From Botryllus schlosseri (Eukaryota): a DNA stretch of 51,566 nt. The notes under the pieces were generated by a model. It made no database searches and was not told where the DNA came from. It was given only the letters and a program-made list of their open reading frames with translations. This document shows, in pieces, positions 2,854 through 42,348 of the stretch. The translations under genes and the position numbers were made by a program. Every line of letters starts with the position of its first letter. Positions within the stretch are counted from its first letter, which is position 1. The stretch covers positions 41,790,001 through 41,841,566 of the forward strand of contig CM119371.1 of NCBI GenBank assembly GCA_051294905.1, in the 5' to 3' direction.

Positions 2854-4946
2854 ACCGGGAGGAAGTTGGCCATCAAATTCTAGCCATCAAAAAAAAATTC
2901 GGAACTACTATGTACAACAACGCAGGTATCGGATGTATCACCAGGACCACTCTTCCGGACATGGCGCGTGGCAGCAATCGGCCACATATGATATTTCGAC
3001 GTTGGCCGGCCGCGTTGGAATACGAATTAAAGTAATTTCAAATCAATCAGCATACAAATTACCGACTGATTTCATCGCATCACGTCATTTGTGAAACAAC
3101 TAACAAAGAATATAAACTCGACTGGCACCTGAACAGAGCTATCTCGCGAAACACTATCGCCGTCGCGAAATCTTCACAGCTGCTAGTTGTCGCTCTGCTG
3201 CAAACAAAATATCGCCAAATGCATTTCTAGCCAACAAAATCTGGATTTGACAAAACAAATAGTGTTCCGACACGTGAAACGCCGTACCTCAAAATCTTAA
3301 TGTCTATTTTTCGATCAAACAGTTGTTTTAGAAAGTAATAGGACAGTCCTACATGTTGCTAAACAATAAAGAAGTGTGTGCAACTCACCTTGAATAAATC
3401 TCAAAACTATACGATACGCTCAACTATACAGTCAAGAATATTAAAATTTATTCACGAAAAATATTCAAAATTTTTCAATCTATTCACTGTGTCAAGGAAT
3501 GGATTTCAAATACGTAGAGCCTATAGTTAGGCCTAGCAGCACCCCAATTTTCAGAGATATCCAAGTGGCTCAAGGTGTCCAACGGGCCCAATAAGCTCGA
3601 CTGAACAATCATTGAAATTCAAATTTATTAACGAAAAATATTCGAAAATTTTAAAACTATAACCTGTGTCAAAGAATGGCTTTCAAATACGTATAGCCTA
3701 CAATTAGGCCTAGAAGCACCCCAATTTTCAGCGATATCCAAGTGGCGCAAGGTATCCAACGGGCCCGACACACCTGACTGCTCAGTGATAAAAATACAAA
3801 TTTATTCACGAAAATATTCGAAAATTTTCAAACTATAACCTGTGTCAAGGAATGGCTTAAAAATACATATAGCCTATAGTTAGGCCTACCATCACACTAA
3901 TTTTCTGAGATATCCAAGTGGCGCAAGGTGTCCAACGGGCCCGACACACCTGACTGCTCAGTGATAAAAATACAAATTTATTCACGAAAATATTCGAAAA
4001 TTTTCAAACTATAACCTGTGTCAAGGAATGGCTTAAGAATACATATAGCCTATAGTTAGGCCAAGCATCACACTAATTTTCTGAGATATCCAAGTGGCGC
4101 AAGGTGTCCAACGGGCCCGATACGCTCGGCTGCACAGTCATTGAAATTCAAATTTATTCACGAAAAGTATTCGAAAATTTTCAAACTATAACCAGTGTCA
4201 AAGAATGGCTTTCAAATACGTATAGCCTATAGTTAAGCCTAGCAGCACCCCAATTTTCAGAGATATCCAAGTGGCGCAAGGTGTCCAACGGGCCCAATAA
4301 GCTCGACTGAACAATCATTGAAATTCAAATTTATTCACGAAAAATATTCAAAATTTTTCAATCTATTCACTGTGTCAAGGAATGGATTTCAAATACGTAT
4401 AGCCTATAGTTAAGCCTAGCATCACACTGATTTTCAGCGATATCCAAGTGGACTGTCCTATTACTTTCTAAAACAACTGTTTGATCGAAAAATAGACATT
4501 AAGATTTTGAGGTACGGCGTTTCACGTGTCGGAACACTATTTGTTTTGTCAAATCCAGGTTTTGTTGGCTAGAAATGCATTTGGCGATATTTTGTTTGCA
4601 GCAGAGCGACAACTAGCAGCTGTGAAGATTTCGCGACGGCGATAGTGTTTCGCGAGATAGCTCTGTTCAGGTGCCAGTTGAGTTTATATTCTTTGTTAGT
4701 TGTTTCACAAATAACGTGATGCGACGAAATCAGTCGGTAATTTGTATGCTGATTGATTTGAAATTACTTTAATTCGTATTTCAACGCGGCCGGCCAACGT
4801 CGAAATATCATATGTGGCCGATTGCTGCCACGCGCCATGGCCGGAAGAGTGGTCCTGGTGATACATCCGATACCTGCGTTGTTGTACATAGTAGTTCCGA
4901 ATTTTTTTTTTGATGGCTAGAATTTGATGGCCAACTTCCTCCAGGT
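2854..4946. mobile_element. Non-coding foldback element: ~495-bp inverted arms enclosing a satellite
   Basis: 2854-3349 (accgggaggaagttggcc...aataggacagtcc) is the near-exact reverse complement of 4450-4946 (ggactgtcctatt...ggccaacttcctccaggt). No TSD found. Confidence 0.85.
3430..4450. repeat. ~177-bp tandem satellite, ~6 copies
   Basis: The motif tttatt(c/a)acgaaaa recurs at 3447, 3624, 3801, 3977, 4153 and 4330. Confidence 0.95.
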
Positions 4947-5959: not shown

Positions 5960-6735
5960 AAGAAGTGGAACAGTAACTATCAATAATCCACGGTTATATG
6001 AGCATAGCGAAAAAAGCATAAATATCACGGTGCGGTGTTGCAAGTCAAGGCTTATGCAGTTAAACGGGCATAGCAAAAGAAACGTATTGATGTCACGGTG
6101 CTGCAATTAGAGGCATAGTAACTATCAATAATGCACGGTTAAAAGGGTATGGCACAAGAAAAGCATTCATGTCACATTGCTGCAAGTACAAGCATAGTAA
6201 CTATCAATAATCCACAGTTAAATGGGTATGGCACAAGGAAAGCATTCATGTCACATTGCTGCAAGTACAAGCATAGTAACTATCAATAATTAACAGTTAA
6301 ATGGGTATGGCACAAGGAAAGCATTCATGTCACATTGCTGCAAGTACAAGCATAGTAACTATCAATAATCCACAGTTAAATGGGTATGGCACAAGGAAAG
6401 CATTCATGTCACATTGCTGCAAGTACAAGCATAGTAACTATCAATAATTAACAGTTAAATGGGTATGGCACAAGGAAAGCATTCATGTCACATTGCTGCA
6501 AGTACAAGCATAGTAACTATCAATAATCCACAGTTAAATGGGTATGGCACAAGGAAAGCATTCATGTCACATTGCTGCAAGTACAAGCATAGTAACTATC
6601 AATAATTAACAGTTAAATGGGTATGGCACAAGGAAAGCATTCATGTCACATTGCTGCAAGTACAAGCATAGTAACATCAATAATGCGCAGGTAAACGGCA
6701 CAAAAAAATATTTGCATCACGGTGCTGCAAGCAGA
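5960..6735. repeat. 79-bp minisatellite, ~8 good plus ~2 degenerate copies
   Basis: catagtaac recurs at 6115, 6193, 6272, 6351, 6430, 6509, 6588 and 6667. Confidence 0.95.
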
Positions 6736-16838: not shown

Positions 16839-19350
16839 TAATAGTGCAACTATGAGACCTTCGGCGTGCCACAATGTTATGTAGTATATTTTAAAATATA
16901 CTGAAGATTGATCTGATATCAGAGCATTTCAGCGGTGTAGCCTAACCCTGATTTTGTTCAAGTCGTGATAAATATAGGCTATTGTCATTGCCAAAGTCAA
17001 ATTAAATCAGCGTTAGATTTTGCCTTTGATTATTATTGGAACATATCAATAACATCATGAATATAATAATTAATGAGCCACAGTAATAGCATTGCTTCTT
17101 AGCCTTTTTAGCGATCGTACCCCTTGTGCTTCCAGTGAGATTTCTCATAGAGCCTGTCCATTTTCAACACAATTTCTGATGGTACCTATAATAAAATCAG
17201 AAAGCCCATTCACACCAGACTATTTTCCAGTTGAATAAATTATTCCACAGCATATAGGCCTAATTCCAAAATGCATCTCACACACCCTGGTGTGGTGCTT
17301 CGTACCCCGATGGGGTCTACGGACCCGGGTTAAGAACCCTTGTAATAGAAATGTCTAATCGGCGAATAATTCATTGGTGTTACAGATGTAGAGCGCAGTG
17401 CTACCCTACTCGCCTACGATAATAACATGGACAAAGATAACAAACAACACCCAGCATGTAATCAACTATACGTCACAGGGGTCTTAGAATGCCAATGGTT
17501 GCCATACTGACCTGATTGTATAGTTATATACCCTGAGCAGCGCAAGCTACGACCTTTTGATATATTACTATTCTCCATGACAGTTTCATAGATTGTTGCG
17601 CCCGTAGGATTAACAGGTCACCATTACGATTCGCATGTCCTTGTCTGATTTTAACGTTTGATCAGACTCAACTCGAGTCATTTTTATATAATCACCCAGT
17701 CAATCCGAAACCCAGTAATTTGATGAGGAGGTCGCACCAAACCAAATCACAATTTCAAGTCACGAATCATCAACGGGTAATATTCTATCAGCATGAACTA
17801 GAAATGTGACGTAATAGCTGATCTTCTATCGCATGGTAGCTTCTAAAAGTGATGTGATGGTGAAGTGATAGTGAAGTTTGTTCAGATTCCAGTGATTTTT
17901 GTAGTAGTTTTAAATTGAACTTTAAGCTCTTATATCTAAAAAAATATATGACACTTGAATATATTGTCGAATACTGGAAATTCCAAAATGCCGTCGCGGG
18001 CCGCACAAAATGCTCTCGCGGGCCGCGTGTTTGAGACCTCTGATGTAGAGTTACAATTCGATCATCCTGCACGAGCTTGTGAAGGCTATCGGCTATGGTC
18101 AACTTCTACTTGATGAGACTGGCAAGTTTCTCCATGTCACATTGATGTGAATCAAGCAAAAAAAGGATTATTTTGAACTATTTTCTGCACAGATGAGGGA
18201 GAACCAGGAAATTATTGCAACAAATGCAACAGTAAAAAGCCAAATGCGACGATCACGGATTGGGTATAGAATTGCAAAGTTGATTTGTCCAGTATGATGA
18301 TCCAAATATTTTATCGGTGACGGCTGTGACTGGCGGACACTCTAACTATAGAGCTCAATAGAGACAATCGTCACGAGAGTGATAGCATCAAACCATTCAG
18401 ATACCCGATAAATGATCAGGCTCATCAATACCGCTGGCGTTTTCTGGGGCAGCCCTAAAAGACGGAGACAGCGGAGAACGGACCCTAAAACACGAAGACG
18501 ACGGAGAGGACCAAAAATCCTGATTCCTAAAAGACAGAGATAGCGGAGGAAGCGGAGAGCAAAGCTTTCGGTCATCGACCTTTATAGACACGCGCATACG
18601 CAACTCTAAAACGTGTAGACGGCGGAACATATAAACTTTCGAGCTAAATAACAATTAAAAGGCAACATATCAAGCTGAGATCAGAATCTATGTAAGCGAA
18701 TAGAATAACCGAAAAGTCAGCCATTCGAGTTCAAGGGATGACGAAGCAGACAGTTATAATATCCTGAAAGCGGAGTTCGGGGCGTAGCGAAATACATTTC
18801 GAAACAGCAGAGAATAACGGAGAAGTCAGCCATACGAGTTTCAGGCCAATTTGGAAGGTTAGTAATCTATAGTTTAAGTGAATATGGCTAACTACCCGTA
18901 CCCTCAACAGGGAATCCAGGCCTGGACTACCTGAAAATGTTGGCCATGGTAGAATGATATCATCTCATGCCAACTGTGTTTGTGTGAACCAGAGTGGAAT
19001 CGGTGGCAACGGCACGCGCAACGGCACGGGAGCATTTATAGCTAATCGTGGTGTGAAATGCGCTCAATGTGTGGTGCACCAATACCACTCCTTACGTAGA
19101 CAACAACGATATTCGATTCTATCTACTGAAGCAGAATGAAAATGTCGGACGTGAAGGTGTGTTCGTTATGAATGAAGACCTCCAGCTTGTAGTGTGTTTT
19201 CCCTACTCTGCGAGACGACAGCTACAGCGCTGTCAAAAGGCTATGCTGAGTGGAAATGCCGGTCCCGTTTCAAGTGATTCTTTCAAAGACTCTATTGCGT
19301 GATGCAAAAATGGAAAAATTCAGATCGCTCTCTCTTTAGTAATATTTAGC

Positions 19351-20052
19351 ATGGATAAGAACGCCATGACTAAGTTCGATCGGATCAAGCTGTATGGTGA
19401 AATCCGAAAAAGGATAACACAAAGAATACGTGGAACAGAACAATGGTTGGACGAACCAGCTCTGGACGTGGAATTGTATGCGGGCAAGATTTCCAAGCTG
19501 TTGCCGAATGAGTGGCTGTCCGGTGACGTTTTGAACGACTACTTAAAACTAATAGTCCAGCGCTCAAATGAATGTGGCAACATCAGGGTCCGCGCCATGA
19601 GCTCTTGTTTTTATGTAGTTCTGCGTACGGACGGCTACGAATCCATTAAGCGATGGACAAGTGATGTGGATAATTTTTCTAAGGACATTATCCTATTTCC
19701 AATTCATCTTGAAGTGCATTGGACCCTTGCGGTCGCGGATTTCCGCCTAAATAAAATACACTACTATGATTCGAAGTTGGAAACAAATTTCGAATGCTTA
19801 GTTACTATTAAAAAATACTTGCTCGAGGAACATCTTTCGAAAAAAAGGTCGGCATTGGATTTTTCAGAATGGGAACTGGAGTGCGTGGCATCAGTTCCAC
19901 GACAATCTAACTCCGATGATTGTGGAGTATTTGTCTGTAAATTCGCAGAATATATTTCACTTGATAAAAAATTAGACTTCACTAAAAATGATATGCCCTA
20001 CTTCAGAAGGTCAATAGCTTATGAACTAAACCATAATAAATTGCTGAGATGA
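19351..20052 (+). CDS. Intronless SENP/Ulp1-family (peptidase C48) SUMO protease, 233 aa
   Basis: WLSGDVLNDYL, Y.SIKRWT..VD.FSKDIILFPIHL, HW (H123), YYDS (D140), PRQSNSDDCGVFVCKFAEY (Q185, C191), F...DMPYFRR. Full triad and oxyanion Gln, ATG to TGA uninterrupted. Confidence 0.95.
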   Translation: MDKNAMTKFDRIKLYGEIRKRITQRIRGTEQWLDEPALDVELYAGKISKLLPNEWLSGDVLNDYLKLIVQRSNECGNIRVRAMSSCFYVVLRTDGYESIKRWTSDVDNFSKDIILFPIHLEVHWTLAVADFRLNKIHYYDSKLETNFECLVTIKKYLLEEHLSKKRSALDFSEWELECVASVPRQSNSDDCGVFVCKFAEYISLDKKLDFTKNDMPYFRRSIAYELNHNKLLR

Positions 20053-20913
20053 TTTATAATATCATTGTGATGTCAGCTACTGAAAAACGGCGCTGGAATC
20101 ATCAACCGTTACATGTGACGTATAATGCAGTTTGTTTTTGCCAGAATCAGGTTGCTCGCTGTACAGTGTAAATTGGGGTTGTTCGAAAAAACTTTTTTTC
20201 CGAATCTTTCTCCCTACTTGATTAAATCGTCAAGTTGCCTAAAAAACGATTCGCAACAAATTTAACTCAATTTCAACCAGTAGGGGCCGATTTCTTCCAA
20301 ATAGAAATATCTGCCATTATTTTAATATAACAGTATCTAGGATGGCCAAATTCATAACTTCGACATGTCCAAAAATCGTGTTCAAGGCATATCTGCAGGT
20401 GCAGGGATACTTTTTCCACCCGTTTACATCTTGACAAGGGTATATGGTAGGGTTTGGATATAGACATCGCCAGTTAACGAAAAAAGGTGTGACACGGATT
20501 AGCTGGAAATTAGTCGACTTCATTGAAATATAATTTCCAAATCAAGTAGGCTACATTTCAAACTGAAAAAAGTAACGACCACGAAAACGAAATGAACTGA
20601 CAAGCAGGTAAAACAATGGTGAATATATTTCTCAAGTAATAGTTAATATATATATTCTTTGCCAGTCCAATGTATATTTCACAAAGTCCTAAGCTTGTGG
20701 CTGTATCATTTGCTCTTCAGCACTCTATGCTACTCTGTCAGGAAAATTAGGACTAATAGGCACGGAACAGGTTTCAGAGATATTGGGAACACGCTTTTCG
20801 TTAATTGGCAACACGCCTCTCTATTGGGCAGCGCGCTACACTCTGTAATACGAGTTACGGGGCCCCAAGGGCTAGAGGTGATGCGCGATTTAAACAAACA
20901 TCAAGAAAGGTGT

Positions 20914-21243
20914 GACTCCATTGCGTGATGCAAAAATGGAAAAATTCAGATTGCCCTCTCTTTAGCAATATTTAGCATGGATAAGAACGCCATCACTAAG
21001 TTCGATCGGATCAAGATGTATGGTGAAATCCGAAAAAGGATAACACAAAGAAAACGTGGAACAGAACAATGGTTAGACGAGCCAGCTCTGGACGTGGCCG
21101 TGTATACGGGCAAGATTTCAACGCTGTTACCGAATGAGTAGCTGTCCGGTGAAGTTGTGAACGACTACTTAAAACTAATCGTCTAGCGCTCAAATGAACG
21201 TGGCAACATCAGGGTCCATGCCATGAGCTCTTATTCTTATGTG
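20914..21243 (+). pseudogene. Truncated, disrupted second copy of the SENP 5' region
   Basis: Near-identical to 19289-19618 (gact..attgcgtgatgcaaaaatgg...gccatgagctctt). Contains an indel and stop-creating changes and ends before the catalytic His. Confidence 0.93.
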
Positions 21244-25109: not shown

Positions 25110-26355
25110 AGATAAAGACTATTTCATTTTTCAAATGCAAGAGATTGTAAGGCAAGACATTTTGAATGTCCTTGCATAACCAATAACCCTTTCAAGGTGT
25201 ACATGTTTTGAAGGGATGGAGTAATCCTCTACCCGCTGTTCCTGAGAGAGCTGAGTCATGCCTTTCATCAAAGTAGGGGTGTTGATTTTCACATCGAATG
25301 GTGCAAACAAACCTTGCAGTAGGTATCCTTTATCAGCCATGATACTGTCGCCCTTTTCAAACATTGCTCTGGTTTCGGCCAGCAAATCAGATTGCTCAAT
25401 AATGCTGCGGTCACTATCGGATCCACCATAGCAGTCACTTATGAAGGAGACAGCACCCGTGGGTGCATTACCAATTATTACTTCCATGGTATTTCCATTC
25501 TTTCAAGTGGAGAATGTAACAGACTGTGCAGTGTGCATGGATATCAGATGGCTTCTCAATTGGGATTTCTGTAGAGTCAATAATTATCTCGTTGATGGAT
25601 ATAGTTTTTTAAATCATCTGGCATGAGATCCAATATTACTTGTTTTGAAGGCGAAATTAGTAATTTTGATAATAAACAGTACATATGCTTGATCCAAGCA
25701 AGCATTAATGATGCGGGAAGCTGTTGATTCTGAAACAATACCAAGCAGTTAATGATCAAGAGCTTGATTAGTGTCAGAAAAAACTTGCTCTTCATTTGAA
25801 CACAACGTACAGGTGTACTCCAATAGATGAACATCGTACATTGCAATGTCCTTTAAAAGCAGAAACTGTTTGATGTCATCAAATCCAGTACCAGTACCAT
25901 GCACTGCTTTCTTATCATCCTTGATATTTTCTAAGCTGAAAGCTGGCATTGAAGCACCTAGTTGGCACTGAATGCCCGTATTTTCGAGTCTGTTTGAAAT
26001 TTCTGGTCACTATGTGTTCCAGAATGAATTATTTCAGTAGGTTCTGGTGTAAATGGGTTCGAATTGTTTGTCTTCCTGACAGTTTTTAGTGGCGTTCTTT
26101 TATCATGCTGAAAGACTGATGGGACTGCCTCCTGTCTTTTAAGTTTCATGTTCGGCTCATATAATCACTTGGAAGAAAATGACCATAGCAAGCAATGTCT
26201 CTGCCCAATGTCTCTGTCCAAAGCTGTTTCGTTTTGGAGTTTGATCTATTAATTGCTTCTCTCCATTTCATCAGCTTCCCTGGTGACGTAGGAATCAAAT
26301 GATCACCAATCCGACTCGTGCAACCAGGTACACAGCAATATCGTGTCCTTTTATA
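25110..26355 (-). pseudogene. THAP + HTH + DDE_Tnp_4 transposase, decayed
   Basis: RYCCVPGC...KWREAINR...CYGHF...EAVPSVF (THAP); GNAPTGAVSFISDCYGGSDSD...GDSIMADKGY...HVHLERVIG (DDE). Confidence 0.92.
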
Positions 26356-26699: not shown

Positions 26700-29300
26700 C
26701 GCTATACCTTCAAGCCAATTTAGACGATAGCAGCAATAAACTATTGGAAACAGGAAATGCCGAAACAAGACCCTCTTTACCACAAACATACCAGCCTCAA
26801 CTGACAAAAGTCCTGAAGAAAACGAAGTAATAAGGGACACGCCTATTTCACCTCATATCGTTGAAATAATAGGTTCAGATATAGAATATGACTCGGATGA
26901 ATACAAGCCACTGGACCCGTTGAATGAAACTGCAATTGAACAGGACTCTCTCATGTCGGAACCCAACAAACGACAGAGAGACCCAAACAGTAGTGAAGAA
27001 ACAATACCATACAAGATAAGTAAAAAAGAGTGTGAAGAAACAGAGCTGTCAGATCACTTGTCAAACTGCTCCAGCACACCGTCATAAATGAAGATTTCAA
27101 CCCTAAACGCAAACGGAATACAAAATAGACTTGAGGACATAGAAAACTACATTCAACGATCAAATAATAATAGAAATGGACCAGTGCCCTGTTGAAGTAA
27201 TCAATGTCTACGCCCCTTCCGGGAATACGCCAGCCGCCATAAAAAATAGAATCAAATTGTTAAACGCACTGGACATAGAGCTCGATAGAATCGACACCCC
27301 TATTGTAATTGGAGGCGACTTCAATTTTGTGACTGATCATAAAGATGTTAAAGCCAAACGAAAGTTTACTAGTACAAGCGAAGCTAAACAGTTTGAAAAG
27401 TCGATAGAAGATGCTGGTATGGTGGACATCTTCAGACATAAACGCCCCGGAGCATAAGAATATACCCATATAACGAAACATGGCGGAAGCAGAATCGATA
27501 GAATTTATATGACATATGAACTCATTGATCAGGTCGTACATGTGGGACATGAGAACAATTAAGTTGCCGACCATCTAAGCCCTACTGCAACCCTAGTCTT
27601 TGAAAAACAAACCAGGTGGCTTAGGCAGAATTGGAAATGTAACAACGACCTCCTGAAAGATGAAACTTACCGTGACATTATGAAAAACCTGATTGAAACA
27701 GAAAACTCCAAGACTGAATCATATGAATCAATTACCACCTGGTGGGATGCTCTAAAAACTAAAATTGGTAACGTTAGTAAAAGATACCAAATCCTAAGGG
27801 ACAAACAACCAGACCCATCCATACGATATGAGCGTGCAAAGGGGAAGCTAAAAATGCTAACCAGAATTGACACATTTGAAGGGGAAAAATGCTCCACAAG
27901 GCAGTTCTGGGCACAATTCAAAGGAAGAAAACGAAGAACTGACACAAAAGAACTGCGCACAAACGATGGCAAGATAATTAATAATCCTAATGACATAGCT
28001 AACCAGATCGAGGAACAACTGGTCAAGATATCAACCTTGAAAAAACAGAAATTCTCCCTCTCAACAACAAGTCGAGAGTAATCCTCCAAAATTCCCGACA
28101 CGCTGTACTAATGAAACCAACAATCAAGATTCTGGGAATCTACCATGGCGACTATGACGTTGAAAAGAACCATGATGAATTGATAAAAAAGCTGGAATCA
28201 AGTGCAAGGAACATCAAAGCAAAAAAACTGACATGGGTTGGAAAAATTCAGGCAATAAAAGCATACGTGCTATCCAAGATAACTTACGTCTATTACAATC
28301 TACAGATAACTGAAAAACAATCAAAGCAGATGGAAAGGATCCTATACAACATCCTATGGAGTCCTGAAAACCTGGAACAAAAATCAAGGAACACACTGAT
28401 AAGGCCAAAAGAATATGGAGGAATAGGAATGCCTCACATAACGACAACGATCAACGCCAGAAATGCAAAGCGCCTACAGGAAATAGCAAAACTCAAAACA
28501 CCCGAGGAAATATGGCATGCCGAGGCCATTCACAATCTGGGGACCAAGGTGTGGTCAATAAATAAATCACTCTACAACAACCTCTTTCCTCACAGACAAA
28601 TGCCAACACGCAAATGGGCCGAGGAGAAACGCATATACGACTCACTCGAAAACGAAGAGACGCCAACCTACGACCTGACTCAAAAAGAGATATATGCTTC
28701 ACTAATACGAAGAAAAACGAAACACGGTGATCAAGAAGACACATGCTGGAAAGAAATATGGCTCTACAACGACACCATCAAGCACAACATAACCAATCAC
28801 CAAAGAGTAATATCATATCGTATTAACAATGAAGCATATTTTACAGGCGCAAGAAAGAACGAAGCGAAATGGACGAGGAGGAAAAATGCAGAACTAAAAA
28901 ACAACTGCAAATTCTGCAAAAGCAGCCATGAAACCCTATATCATATCTTCACGACATGCCCAATTTACAAAAATTTATTCTACCTTGTCAGATCCGACCT
29001 CGAGGACTCCCTGCAAACCGACATCAACGCTTCTACGGAAGAAATCCTCAAAAACACCTACGAGGGGCCGTACAAACTCATCGCGATTACAACCTTCATG
29101 AAAATGAAATGCGAATTATGGGAATGGAAAGAAACGCTTGATATTAAAAATGAATATGCCGATGATATCAACTCAAAAACCGACGAAATCAGAAGAAAAT
29201 TACACAAACCAGTAAGAAGACAATGGGATAGAGGGTGAAAGGGCGTGAAGCGAACGCGAAGCAGACCTGATGAAAAATTGAAATCGACCACGCTCGCACA
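26700..29300 (+). mobile_element. L1/Tx1-clade LINE remnant lacking the RT core
   Basis: ORF2 start MKISTLNANGI at 27088; VINVYAPSG, IVIGGDFN, SRIDRIY and DH (APE), followed by IKILGI...KEYGGIGMP...CKFCKSSHETLYHIFTTC. No QG/YADD motifs lie between them. Outer limits are approximate. Confidence 0.88.
28111..29238 (+). CDS. L1/Tx1 ORF2 C-terminal region (thumb + CCHC zinc finger), 375-aa open frame
   Basis: KILGI, LSKITY, L.RPKEYGGIG.P and Cx2Cx7-8Hx4C. Confidence 0.8.
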   Translation: MKPTIKILGIYHGDYDVEKNHDELIKKLESSARNIKAKKLTWVGKIQAIKAYVLSKITYVYYNLQITEKQSKQMERILYNILWSPENLEQKSRNTLIRPKEYGGIGMPHITTTINARNAKRLQEIAKLKTPEEIWHAEAIHNLGTKVWSINKSLYNNLFPHRQMPTRKWAEEKRIYDSLENEETPTYDLTQKEIYASLIRRKTKHGDQEDTCWKEIWLYNDTIKHNITNHQRVISYRINNEAYFTGARKNEAKWTRRKNAELKNNCKFCKSSHETLYHIFTTCPIYKNLFYLVRSDLEDSLQTDINASTEEILKNTYEGPYKLIAITTFMKMKCELWEWKETLDIKNEYADDINSKTDEIRRKLHKPVRRQWDRG

Positions 29301-33205: not shown

Positions 33206-34804
33206 GAGTATGTATTGGAGATTGTCTCGCTATATAGATATCAACAGGAATATTGTCATATAATTATAACATCCAGTTTGATGCATGAGCGAATGAGTCT
33301 CATTCACATGAAATGTTGAGTCGGGTGCCAAATAATTACCCGTCAGTAACACAACAATTACGCTTTTCAGGAAGCTGAGAAAAATTGTACACGGAAATTT
33401 TGTTTGCTGGCCACTGGGATTCTGCAACAAAAGCCAACGAAAAATCCGGTCTGCGCATTCAATCAAATCCAAAGGATTTCAATTTTACATTGCTTCGTGA
33501 AGGAATAGTTGTATTGAAAATAATAAATGCAACATAACCAATCCATCAACAGTACTACTGTGTCAGGGAGAGAAATATAGAGTTTTGTGTCCAGCAATAG
33601 CTTCATTCAACTAATTTTGACGATGCCGTTAGTCGAATGAGGATGAATCATCACAATAGACTTGGTCGACTTGGCCGTTTCTGGTCTTGCTTTAATGCAT
33701 GCGTCAACTTCATCATTGCAGGAGTAAAAATATCACTGAGTTTTATAACAAAGTCGAATCGAAGGCAGTAGGCCTATACCAAATGCTGTTCGGAAGTATC
33801 ATAAAAATGAAGGATTGCCAACTGCATCCTACCTAACTTTACGACTATTATGATGATAGTGATAAGTTTTCACCTTTTACTGAGCGGTCAATATTGATAG
33901 GTTCAGTCACAGATATCTGACACTCCTCATTCAATAACTGAAGTAACTAATATGATTACATGACCGCACATGTACAGTACACAAAAAGAAGTGTATTTTC
34001 AAAAGTAATAGCAACTCTCCCATTAGGAGGTCAGCGATATATAACCATTATACGTCATGAAGTCAGCAGGTTATGAACTCCCTTTATAGTAACTAATGCA
34101 TTTATAGATCTTTTTTTCTTAATTGATTTTCAAGTGTTTTTATTTCAGACTACGTACACTTCTACTTACAAGTTTTTCAAGGCATACATATTTCAGTTAT
34201 TTGCACATGCACGTGAGTGTAAACAATAATAATACTTCGATGACTACCATACCTCAGTCAATACTACTATAAGCGGTTAGTTACACTCTTACAAAACTAT
34301 AGCTGACACAGTACATTTTCACTTACCGATTTCGGACACTTTGTATAGCTTTATATAGAAGTGCGTTCCTCTGACATTACCACAATTTCACTGGTGCGTG
34401 GAAATAAAGTATGAACGGCACTACTGCAGTACGTCGGCAAGAGTTGCCCGTGTTCAGTAGTCAGTTTTCTTGCGCGTTGCGTATCTCGGATACTTCATTG
34501 AAGCAAGATACTTGTTAGTGATTCGCATTTGAAAATGACTCTGCCTTTGGTTGTCTATAAGTCCGCACTTTTGGTCTTAATGGCGTCCGGTCGCCTGTCG
34601 GTATATGGATGGGTTTTGGCAGCGATGTCAATGCATTGTAGGTACGGCATATTGCGTATTGGACCAACCATACGCGACATAACATCTGACTCTATGAATT
34701 ATCTCCTTCACAGCTTTCATGATCCCACTCAAAGACCCAAATCCACAGCAAATCTAAGCAATAATCCCATCTAACAGCCAACAGAAATAACAAGGACTTT
34801 TGTT

Positions 34805-36775
34805 ACTGCTGTCATCTGGGCCGAATACTTGTATGAAATTTCCAAAGCGGAAAAAAGATATGACCTACCATTATCATTTTTAACGAATTACCTCCGGGAG
34901 GATGAGTTAATACCTCTTCTGGATTCAATAGTGGTATAAATTACATACCAATATGAGATAGCTTATTTCCAGCTGCATAAGTACCAGTAAATGTCCACCA
35001 AAATTTCTGTGATGTGATCGCATTCGCAACAATACACCATTGCTTCGATCAATTTGACCCTGTCAATATATCTTATCGGTAGGGTAACTTATACTTTGTT
35101 CCGGAAGATAAGTTATACCTTTTCTGAATCTAATAGTCATCTATTTTACACCCACACTAGAGACAACTCATTTCAAGGTACACAAGTTACTCTAAAATCC
35201 ACCTAAATATGTCGTATTATCGCTACAAAGGCCAATTACCATTCGTTTCACGCAACTCGACCATGCCAATATATGTTATCGGTAGGGCAACTTAAACTTT
35301 GTTCCGGGAGATGAATTATAACTTTTCTGAATCTAATAGTCATCTATGTTACACCCAGACTAGAGACAACTCATTTCGAGGTACACAAGTTACTCTGAAA
35401 TCCACATAAATATGTCGTATTATCGCTACAGAGGCCAATTCACATTCATTTCACGCAATTTGTCCATGCCAATATATGTTATCGGTAGGGTAACTTAAAC
35501 TTTGTTCCGGGAGATGAATTATACCTTTTCTGAATCTAATAGTCATCTATTTTACACCCAGACTAGAGACAACTCATTTCGAGGTACACAAGCTACTCTA
35601 AAATCCACCTAAAAATGTCGTATTATCGCTGCAAAGGCCAATTAACATTCGTTTCACGCAACTCGACCATGCCAATATATGTTATCGGTAGGGTAACTTA
35701 TACTTTGTTCCGGAAGATGAGTTATACCTTTTCTGAATCTCATAGTCGTCTACTTTACACCCAAACTGGACAGAACGTATTTTGAGGTACACAAGTAACC
35801 CTAAAATCCAACTGAATACGTCGGATCTGATCGCTACAAAGGGCAATGCACAATCGCTTCACGCAATTTGACTATATGAATATATCCTATCAGTAGGGTG
35901 ACTTATACTTTATTCCGAAAGATAAGTTATACCTATTCTGAATCTAGTACCCATATATTTTACGCCCAGACTGCGGACAAGTCATTTCGAGGTACACAAC
36001 CCTTTGCAAAATTCAACTAAATAAGTGTGATATGATCGCATTTTGCGACAAACCACAATTGCTTCACACGATTTGACCATGTCAATATATCCTACCGGTA
36101 GGGTAACTTAAACTTTGTTCCGGGAGATGAATTATACCTTTTCTGAATCTAATAGTCATCTATTTTATACCCAGACTAGAGACAACTCCTTTCGAGGTAC
36201 ATAAGTTACTCTAAAATCCACCTGAATGTGTCGTATTATCGCTACAGAGGCCAATTCACATTCATTTCACGCAATTTGTCCATGCCAATATATGTTATCG
36301 GTAGGGTAACTTAAACTTTGTTCCGGGAGATGAATTATACCTTTTCTGAATCTAATAGTCATCTATTTTACACCCAGACTAGAGACAACTCATTTCGAGG
36401 TACACAAGCTACTCTAAAATCCACCTAAAAATGTCGTATTATCGCTGCAAAGGCCAATTAACATTCGTTTCACGCAACTCGACCATGCCAATATATGTTA
36501 TCGGTAGGGTAACTTATACTTTGTTCCGGAAGATGAGTTATACCTTTTCTGAATCTCATAGTCGTCTACTTTACACCCAAACGGGAGAGAACTTATTTTG
36601 AGGTACACAAGTAACCCTAAAATCTACCTAAATATGTCGGATGTGATCGCCACAGAAGGCAATTCACAGCGTTTCATGGAATTTGACCATATCTACATAT
36701 CTTATCGGTAGGGTAAGTTTAACTTTGTTCCGGAAGATGAGTTATACCTTTTCTGATTGCAATCGTCATTTACTT
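34805..36775 (+). repeat. Left arm: ~204-bp tandem units
   Basis: The ggtagggtaactt anchor recurs near 35078, 35281, 35484, 35687, 35892, 36097, 36300, 36503 and 36707. Confidence 0.95.
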
Positions 36776-36873
36776 TCAATAAAAACAATAGTTATGAGTG
36801 ATGACCGATGTTCAGGTGTGAAAACAATAATTTTTATTATCAACGAAAATGAAAGAATGGGCGATTGATTTTT

Positions 36874-41923: not shown

Positions 41924-42348
41924 CTTTTGTTGTGTCAACTACTTGACGTCATTTCACGGCTGGGTGATTTCGTTTCCGTTTTCCGGAATTTCGATTTGTA
42001 ATTCAAATTACTTGAAAACTATCAGGTAATTTCAATTTTCATTATTTTATTCATATTCCTAACCACATAATGTACGAAATAAGGTGAAGTCATTTTGAAG
42101 ATGCAGTTGACCTTTAAGGCCCTAAGGTGCAGCTGAAATCACAAAATTTTCCAAATTTTTTCTATTGCAGAATCTTAAAGTATGAAACTAGTTCTTTTCA
42201 AAAATGAATTGCTGTTGATATCCCATTTTCGGAGAAAGTCACCCCCATACACTTTCATTCATTCAAACTCGCTCAAAATTGTCTATAAGCAGTAAGCACT
42301 CTGCCATGCTGATTTTACACAATAAATAGAAGAGCCATATGTCTAATC

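What the first reader, a model, noticed from the sequence alone, without database searches (positions are those of the whole stretch)
34797..41931. 7.1-kb Foldback-NOF-like element whose inverted arms are satellites
Seen: about 2.0-kb and 2.6-kb inverted arms made of ~204-bp units, near-identical outer ends, an exact 8-bp TSD (cttttgtt) and a coding spacer. Known: Drosophila FB-NOF has repeat-built arms around a NOF gene, but with much shorter repeat units. Inference: a recent insertion of an FB-like family with nucleosome-scale units, a possible vehicle for satellite spread and a cruciform or rearrangement hotspot about 6 kb from the telomere.
Basis: partly seen in the sequence, partly recalled or inferred. 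Interest (0 to 1): 0.8.

Follow-up and report, generated by a model that had tools for sequence, protein, structure and literature searches.

The report
Deleted foldback transposon with two proteases
This is a real 7.1-kb jumping gene with mirror-image ends built of ~203-base repeats; this copy has lost most of its cutting enzyme, and it likely belongs to a known but little-studied Mutator-type group whose full protein here also carries a predicted SUMO-type and a predicted ubiquitin protease.

Summary
Observation confirmed: inverted arms of 1,972 and 2,634 bp made of 203-205-bp units, 5 mismatches in the outer 400 bp, an exact 8-bp target duplication, 5.7 kb from the telomere repeat. The spacer encodes the last ~780 residues of a ~2,000-residue Mutator-type (NOF/Rehavkus-like) transposase. 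Full-length relatives read PHD finger - DDE core - Ulp1-like - USP. This copy keeps only the third catalytic residue, has a one-base frameshift that contigs of other samples lack, and carries a fragment of a very high-copy repeat at the deletion point. It is therefore a non-autonomous derivative, likely moved in trans. Satellite spread and cruciform/hotspot ideas remain untested. The unusual part is the tandem Ulp1+USP tail, which my searches did not find described; this scan already noted the same architecture twice elsewhere in this genome (e1-7883164, e1-7882457). No genome or spanning reads were available, so the empty site and the family's TSD length are unchecked.

The parts
34797..34804 (+). 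left target-site duplication (8 bp)
   Evidence: identical to 41924-41931
34805..34892 (+). left outer terminal repeat, non-tandem part (88 bp)
   Evidence: inverted copy at 41836-41923 with 1 mismatch (offset 70); no 9-12-mer of it recurs in the left arm beyond offset 100
34893..36776 (+). left tandem arm: one diverged unit, eight full 203-205-bp units, one partial unit; unit order a b c d e b' c f; a 4-unit-offset (816 bp) duplication with 354 identical bases
36874..37686 (-). USP/UCH (peptidase C19) domain at the end of frame B; Cys-box Cys codon at 37665, His at 37017, Asp at 36963
   Evidence: Pfam UCH E 2.1e-10, above cut-off; USP8 E 9e-5; Foldseek USP2 E 1.7e-7 on a low-confidence model; motif places
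37687..38280 (-). Ulp1-like (peptidase C48) domain, split by the frameshift; His 38064, Asn in place of Asp 38013, Gln 37887, Cys 37869
   Evidence: family profile vs a Pfam-confirmed C48 protein: hhalign probability 88.8, E 2.5e-6, His/Asp/Gln/Cys columns aligned; no direct Pfam C48 hit
38194..38201 (-). one-base frameshift in a run of 8 T (plus strand) between frame A and frame B
   Evidence: frames A and B are collinear with single proteins P0003 and P0008; one more T here in X3 (depth 555.8 of 1687.9), X10 (19.4 of 19.4), X2 (11.4 of 1624.8)
38281..38915 (-). frame A: last piece of the DDE core with the third catalytic Glu (codon at 38825), a basic stretch and a linker; matches P0008 from residue 1297
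38930..39293 (.). fragment of an unrelated very high-copy repeat (MITE-like) at the deletion point; internal 70-bp palindrome 38933-39002; one end overlaps the right arm by a few bases
   Evidence: summed depth 1e5-2e6 in X2 and X3 against 1e2-3e3 over the gene; a second copy at window 20176-20282, E 1e-9
39290..41835 (-). right tandem arm: one diverged unit and twelve units read inward, a b b' c d e g d e f(154 bp, 53-column gap) h i; a 3-unit-offset (613 bp) duplication
41836..41923 (-). right outer terminal repeat (88 bp)
41924..41931 (+). right target-site duplication (8 bp)

Best explanation
The element is an internally deleted foldback DNA transposon with an exact 8-bp target duplication, likely a non-autonomous member of the NOF/Rehavkus branch of the Mutator superfamily that was likely cut and pasted here by a full-length relative's transposase. 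Shown: the anatomy; that the spacer is the 3' ~780 codons of a gene whose full-length relatives read PHD - DDE core (D, D, CxxH, E) - Ulp1-like - USP; that the PHD finger, both aspartates and the CxxH are missing here; that a high-copy repeat fragment fills the break. Inferred by analogy to Muta1: the transposase binds the outer ends and, multivalently, the tandem units, cuts at the termini and inserts with an 8-9-bp stagger. Inferred from unit order: the arms are one long terminal repeat whose unit number changed by unequal exchange or slippage in blocks of 1-4 units. Inferred and untested: in the full-length protein the two protease domains remove SUMO-type and ubiquitin marks from chromatin or repair proteins at the element.
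For: Anatomy and TSD. Both frames align in order to one 2,074-aa protein, residues 1297-1605 and 1605-2035, and nothing else in the window matches it (tblastn E 1e-41). That protein has PHD (E 1.4e-4, under cut-off) and UCH (E 9e-20) and the D985-region, D1060, CxxH 1106 and E1327 motifs; a second open frame of at least 1,426 aa in L001 has PHD and the same core. The core (P0015) has MULE-family clusters as Atlas feature neighbours (0.90-0.92) and the NOF-named cluster, with C48 in 45% and PHD in 34% of members, as first structural neighbour (both searches are one source). The best, though weak, Foldseek hit of my own low-confidence model is the IS256-family ISCth4 transposase (E 0.015; family label recalled). 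MULEs make 8- or 9-bp TSDs (Muta1 in yeast: 21 and 39 events; PMC5225508, passages) and more subterminal repeats raise binding and excision (PMC5499845, passages). Mirror order of unit types in the two arms.
Against: No direct alignment to NOF or to a Repbase Rehavkus protein was possible; the link rests on an automatic cluster name and predicted models. Pfam MULE was not hit by any of 21 relatives or by P0032. Published Rehavkus TSD is 9 bp (PMC6446971); this one is 8. None of 5 related loci showed inverted tandem arms, though all are short or broken contigs; the ~205-bp repeat in L003 scores no better than shuffles. The 1,293 letters beyond the break were not shown, so their identity as transposase is inferred. 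In X2 only 1 contig (11.4 of 1624.8) shows the extra T, so the frameshift may be common in that sample. The fold-only search was uninformative (best Z 5.6, unrelated).
Confidence: 0.83

Rival explanations
1. Composite like Drosophila FB-NOF as some authors read it: the arms are an independent gene-less foldback element and the NOF-like gene is a separate unit that inserted into it.
For: [quoted passage not shown] No arms were found beside 5 related loci.
Against: The gene's stop lies about 100 bp from the left arm's inner end, with no room for a long own terminus; self-BLAST at E 1e-8 shows no inner inverted pair around the gene (short ones are not excluded, and the 5' side is deleted). Rehavkus elements have arms and gene as one unit.
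Confidence: 0.09
2. The arms belong to another superfamily with 8-bp TSDs (hAT or P/Galileo type) and the Mutator gene piece is captured cargo.
For: 8-bp TSD rather than the 9 bp listed for Rehavkus; an 8-bp-TSD hAT-like element lies 418 bp away; foldback structure also occurs in the P superfamily.
Against: 8 bp is common in animal MULEs and in Tetris; the gene is multi-copy with many variant contigs in other samples; the termini share nothing obvious with the neighbouring hAT-like ends.
Confidence: 0.05
3. Assembly artefact: a false palindrome made from snap-back reads or mis-joined satellite arrays.
For: No listed contig spans the spacer, none bridges the gene/repeat junction at 38929, and no spanning reads could be examined.
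Against: The arms differ in unit number and order and at 10 of the outer 675 bases, which a snap-back read would not give; an exact TSD flanks both ends; the spacer is covered in 30 of 30 bins in three runs.
Confidence: 0.03

Closest known systems
Rehavkus elements (Repbase group in or beside MULE; Rehavkus-1_TC, -3_TC, -1_HR; PMC6446971 passages and supplement rows, PMC12581902 and its preprint passages, PMC10218199 passages)
   Same: Long inverted termini with a variable number of satellite-sized subterminal units (164 bp, mostly 5 and 8 copies in Rehavkus-1_TC), one ORF, PHD finger in the full-length protein, element sizes of 5-11 kb.
   Different: TSD 8 bp here against 9 bp listed; a USP domain behind the Ulp1-like domain is not mentioned in the passages or supplement terms searched; this copy is deleted. 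No sequence-level comparison was possible.
Drosophila FB-NOF / NOF_FB (PMC7642927 section read; Dfam preprint 10.64898/2026.09.13.751287 passage)
   Same: Mirror arms with a conserved end and a variable number of repeat blocks; NOF-like protein between them (Atlas cluster name).
   Different: FB blocks are five 27-31-bp sub-repeats, whereas the 203-bp unit shows no internal periodicity above shuffles; FB TSD 9 bp; FB end sequences 467-479 bp against 88 bp here.
Tetris of Drosophila virilis (PMC4079207, passages)
   Same: ~220-bp tandem units in long TIRs, 8-9-bp TSD, non-autonomous copies, unit number changed by duplication.
   Different: Tetris has no ORF; its units were shown to seed long satellite arrays, which is untested here.
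Muta1 of Aedes aegypti (PMC5225508, PMC5499845, passages)
   Same: MULE foldback with 8- or 9-bp TSD, DDE and CxxH motifs; the mechanistic model used here.
   Different: 145-bp TIRs with 12-bp repeats, 504-aa transposase, no protease domains.
Transposons carrying ubiquitin-like proteases (PMC2836005, PMC11417382, passages)
   Same: Ulp1 in Mutator and Ginger1 transposases, peptidase C19 on a Trichomonas transposase_11 protein, UCH and C48 in Helitrons.
   Different: Each is reported singly in the passages seen; here Ulp1-like and USP sit in tandem on a Mutator-type core.

Membership tests
MULE/Mutator superfamily | DDE triad with CxxH after the second Asp in the family's transposase | tested here: met
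   Present in full-length relatives P0008 and P0032 and invariant in 5 of 5 rows of A3 for D123, C169/H172, E388; the window copy keeps only the Glu.
MULE/Mutator superfamily | Pfam MULE (PF10551) match | tested here: inconclusive
   No hit in 21 of 21 relatives or P0032; Atlas feature neighbours carry PF10551.
MULE/Mutator superfamily | 8-11-bp TSD and long TIRs | tested here: met
   8-bp exact TSD, arms of 2.0 and 2.6 kb; 8 or 9 bp in Muta1.
Rehavkus / NOF branch | Inverted termini with variable subterminal tandem repeats | tested here: met
   definition.
Rehavkus / NOF branch | PHD finger in the transposase | tested here: met
   In relatives P0008 and P0032, E about 1e-4, under Pfam's cut-off; deleted from the window copy.
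Rehavkus / NOF branch | 9-bp TSD | tested here: inconclusive
   This one insertion has 8 bp exact, or 9 bp with one mismatch and asymmetric ends; other copies could not be read.
Rehavkus / NOF branch | DDE core groups with NOF/Rehavkus proteins in a tree or direct alignment | not testable with these tools
   No named reference protein could be fetched; only the Atlas cluster name and TM 0.63 between predicted models.
Autonomous transposon | Intact transposase gene | tested here: not met
   P0008 residues 1-1296 have no match in the window, and a frameshift splits the rest.
USP / peptidase C19 | Cys box and His box with Asp | tested here: met
   Pfam UCH 41.1 bits against a cut-off of 23.9; Cys, His, Asp present. 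Activity untested.
Ulp1 / peptidase C48 | His-Asp-Cys triad with oxyanion Gln | tested here: inconclusive
   His, Gln, Cys present and aligned to a Pfam-confirmed C48 protein; Asn replaces the Asp that P0003 and P0008 have; no direct Pfam C48 hit.
Satellite DNA source (Tetris-like) | The unit also forms free or long arrays elsewhere | not testable with these tools
   No genome held; 0 of 25 BLAST hits of the unit and terminus fall outside the element in this window.

The most novel reading that the evidence does not exclude
This transposon lineage carries its own chromatin-mark eraser: a PHD reader plus a SUMO-type and a ubiquitin protease fused to the transposase, loaded in many copies on satellite-like arms, so that the element strips silencing or repair marks from its own ends. 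The four-part protein is conserved at only 24-33% identity across several marine genomes, which would make it an old anti-silencing design; deleted copies like this one, which keep only the protease half, could even supply the proteases alone.
Probability: 0.22. Interest if true: 0.75.

Novelty: new variant of a known kind. Interest (0 to 1): 0.38.

Why it matters
The structure is a clean example of a known route from transposon ends to satellite DNA, in a group known mostly from Repbase entries. What would matter more is the protein tail: why transposons keep ubiquitin-like proteases has been an open guess since at least 2010 (PMC2836005, passages). A family with both protease types behind a histone reader, with relatives in public data, gives a direct way to test it with two small enzyme assays and a transposition assay.

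Tried and rejected
No whole genome is held, so copy number, TSD table, empty site and free satellite arrays were not examined. Word-index protein searches: frame A against longer proteins, 0 of 794 candidates; frame B, 1 of 3,038; the DDE alignment with 'longer' looked only at 3,631-5,000 aa because its length followed the alignment, 0 of 696, uninformative. Atlas on frame A alone gave only a 0.75 lead to a C48 cluster. The terminus pattern found nothing in metagenome or viral contigs; relatives in viral contigs 0 of 3 and 0 of 28 candidate stretches. Five metagenome loci of 114 candidates showed no inverted arms; the L003 repeat is not alike to this unit (score 29, best of 20 shuffles 49). 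Both AlphaFold models were poor (mean pLDDT 49.6); the wide fold search gave nothing clear and the listed Foldseek rows for frame B were all USP-type, so the Ulp1 fold was not shown structurally. Expression: no RNA holder listed on record; raw single-cell RNA reads (3 in 100 of the run) lay almost only on the high-copy repeat, depth 0-1.6 on the gene; X10 is RNA only by guess: no conclusion. The 162-bp skip at 37726-37887 was considered as an intron and rejected: its ends are not GT-AG in any shown register and it stands in the DNA-type run X2. A programmed -1 frameshift at the A-run was considered and set aside, since other samples have the extra base. No sub-repeat inside the unit. No open frame crosses the empty site. 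Literature searches for a Ulp1+USP Mutator transposase (supplement terms) found none; Repbase Reports, subscription papers on FB-NOF and Phantom, and bioRxiv supplements were not available and may describe it.

Full report
Observation. The window ends in a telomeric repeat from 47629. The element runs from 34805 to 41923 with symmetric inverted ends, flanked by an exact 8-bp direct repeat at 34797-34804 and 41924-41931. The ends differ at 5 of the first 400 and 10 of the first 675 bases. An 8-base match at a fixed pair of places has a chance near 2e-5; it is the only register without a mismatch, while 9-10-bp registers need a mismatch and asymmetric ends. The arms are 1,972 and 2,634 bp, each an 88-bp unique end, one diverged unit and an array of 203-205-bp units.

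Arm history. Units fall into types that are 71-100% alike and stand in mirror order: left a b c d e b' c f plus a partial unit, right a b b' c d e g d e f(short) h i. Left units 3 and 7 are identical (0 of 203 differences), within a 354-base exact duplication at a lag of 816; right units 5-6 and 8-9 differ at 6 of 410 bases at a lag of 613; left 3-5 and right 4-6 differ at 12 of 613. I infer one long terminal repeat whose unit number changed by unequal exchange or slippage. A snap-back artefact would give identical arms and no TSD. The unit has no internal periodicity above 200 shuffles, and 0 of 25 BLAST hits of unit and terminus lie outside the element.

The gene. The spacer holds two overlapping minus-strand frames, A (286 aa) and B (486 aa). 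B has a UCH/USP domain (E 2.1e-10; USP8 E 9e-5). A full HMMER scan with A found 20 relatives, among them P0008, 2,074 aa. A matches P0008 1297-1605 and B 1605-2035, and no other part of P0008 matches the window; P0003 likewise joins the tail of A and the body of B. P0008 carries a PHD finger and UCH (UCH in 3 of 21 proteins scanned, most others being fragments) and a core with Asp, Asp, CxxH and Glu motifs that are invariant in the small alignments. L001 gives a second open frame of at least 1,426 aa with PHD and the same core. In the ESM Atlas the core has MULE clusters as feature neighbours and, as first structural neighbour (TM 0.63), a cluster automatically named after the NOF-FB protein, with C48 in 45% and PHD in 34% of members. 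My own model was poor; its best Foldseek row was ISCth4 transposase at E 0.015 and the wide search was uninformative. The segment between core and USP aligns with a Pfam-confirmed Ulp1 protein from elsewhere in the window (probability 88.8); His, Gln and Cys are present, and the window copy has Asn where P0003 and P0008 have Asp.

State of this copy. It keeps only the third catalytic residue, so it cannot make a working transposase. Contigs of three other runs cover the spacer in 30 of 30 bins. One more T at 38194, which joins frames A and B, is seen in X3 (555.8 of 1687.9 summed depth), X10 (19.4 of 19.4) and X2 (only 11.4 of 1624.8), so the family frame is continuous in some copies; whether the window's break is a mutation or an assembly error is open. 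From about 38930 to 39293 depth rises about a thousandfold: this is a piece of another, very high-copy repeat, with a second copy at 20176-20282; the loose-end consensus suggests a CAGT end beside TA, as in Tc1/mariner MITEs (recalled, not tested). An in-frame 162-bp skip that removes the Ulp1-like Gln and Cys stands in X2, X3 and X10, so the family has further derivatives. At 12 of the 24 variant places shown for 36780-38929 (44 rows of the table were not shown) the window differs from the majority in every covering run, about 0.6%: young, not brand new, or partly assembly error. Expression is unresolved.

Mechanism. By analogy to Muta1 (PMC5225508 and PMC5499845, passages), a full-length transposase would bind the ends and the tandem units, excise by double-strand breaks and insert with an 8- or 9-bp duplication; more repeats gave more binding and excision there. 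This copy would be moved in trans. The protease tail is predicted, not shown, to act on SUMO-type and ubiquitin marks; Bao et al. proposed a role in repair during transposition for single such domains (PMC2836005, passages).

Comparison. Rehavkus elements are described with long inverted termini, variable subterminal repeats, PHD finger and 9-bp TSD (PMC6446971, passages and supplement rows; bioRxiv 2024.12.02.626372 and PMC12581902, passages), with 164-bp units in Rehavkus-1_TC (PMC10218199, passages) and documented growth of such units into an 80-kb satellite. Tetris has 220-bp units and 8-9-bp TSDs (PMC4079207, passages). FB has blocks of five 27-31-bp repeats and 9-bp TSDs (PMC7642927, section 20 read; Dfam preprint passage). 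PMC3169594, PMC13359780, PMC11417382 and bioRxiv 2021.09.26.461848 were seen as passages. So the element works like these and meets the structural and PHD tests; the 9-bp test is inconclusive and the tree test could not be run. I call it likely NOF/Rehavkus-type, not a proven member. None of 5 related metagenome loci showed arms, which neither helps nor, given short contigs, refutes.

Novelty. Satellite arms of this size are known. A tandem Ulp1-like plus USP tail on a Mutator-type transposase was not found in my searches, but Repbase Reports and subscription papers were out of reach. I reached this reading before the look-up (stated); the scan's earlier notes report the same architecture on other pieces of this genome (e1-7883164, e1-7882457). 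They are unchecked AI notes and not independent support; sequence look-ups found no look-alike stretch, so I cannot say whether they are the same family. Verdict: real, a new variant of a known kind, interest 0.38.

Noticed in passing
window 42349-45510: A 3.2-kb element with 16-bp imperfect inverted ends and an exact 8-bp duplication (GTCTAATC) lies 418 bp right of the finding; broken minus-strand frames at 42660-43500 look like a hAT transposase (resemblance recalled; no Pfam hit; ends).
   Followed up: partly
window 2854-4946: A second foldback-like structure: 497-bp inverted arms, 98.4% alike, around a 177-bp tandem array of 5.9 copies (3412-4451); no direct repeat of 5 or more bases at the ends; a 148-bp repeat abuts it on the left.
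   Followed up: partly
window 19303-20052 and 20914-21242: An open Ulp1/peptidase C48 frame (Pfam E 8.6e-36) with a 92%-identical broken partial copy 1.6 kb away; another likely transposon-borne SUMO protease.
   Followed up: partly
window 37726-37887: Other samples hold a form lacking these 162 bases in frame, which removes the Ulp1-like catalytic Gln and Cys but keeps the USP domain; depth 444 against 535 for the full form in X3.
   Followed up: partly
window 38930-39293 and 20176-20282: A repeat with summed contig depth up to 2e6 in other samples, about a thousand times the element's gene, with many internally deleted forms: probably one of the genome's most abundant MITE families.
   Followed up: partly
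window 47049-47580: Subtelomeric array of a G-rich 22-bp unit containing a telomere-like hexamer, 23.7 copies, just before the telomeric repeat.
   Followed up: no
window 25131-25502 and 27563-29238: A Harbinger-type DDE_Tnp_4 fragment (E 8.5e-19) and a LINE-like fragment with zf-RVT (E 3e-4, under cut-off); a 79-bp tandem array at 6057-6695.
   Followed up: no
L003 7879-8307 and 9873-10175: A related gene remnant that also starts just before the third catalytic residue, with a 2.1-copy ~205-bp repeat 1.6 kb upstream that is not significantly alike to this unit.
   Followed up: partly
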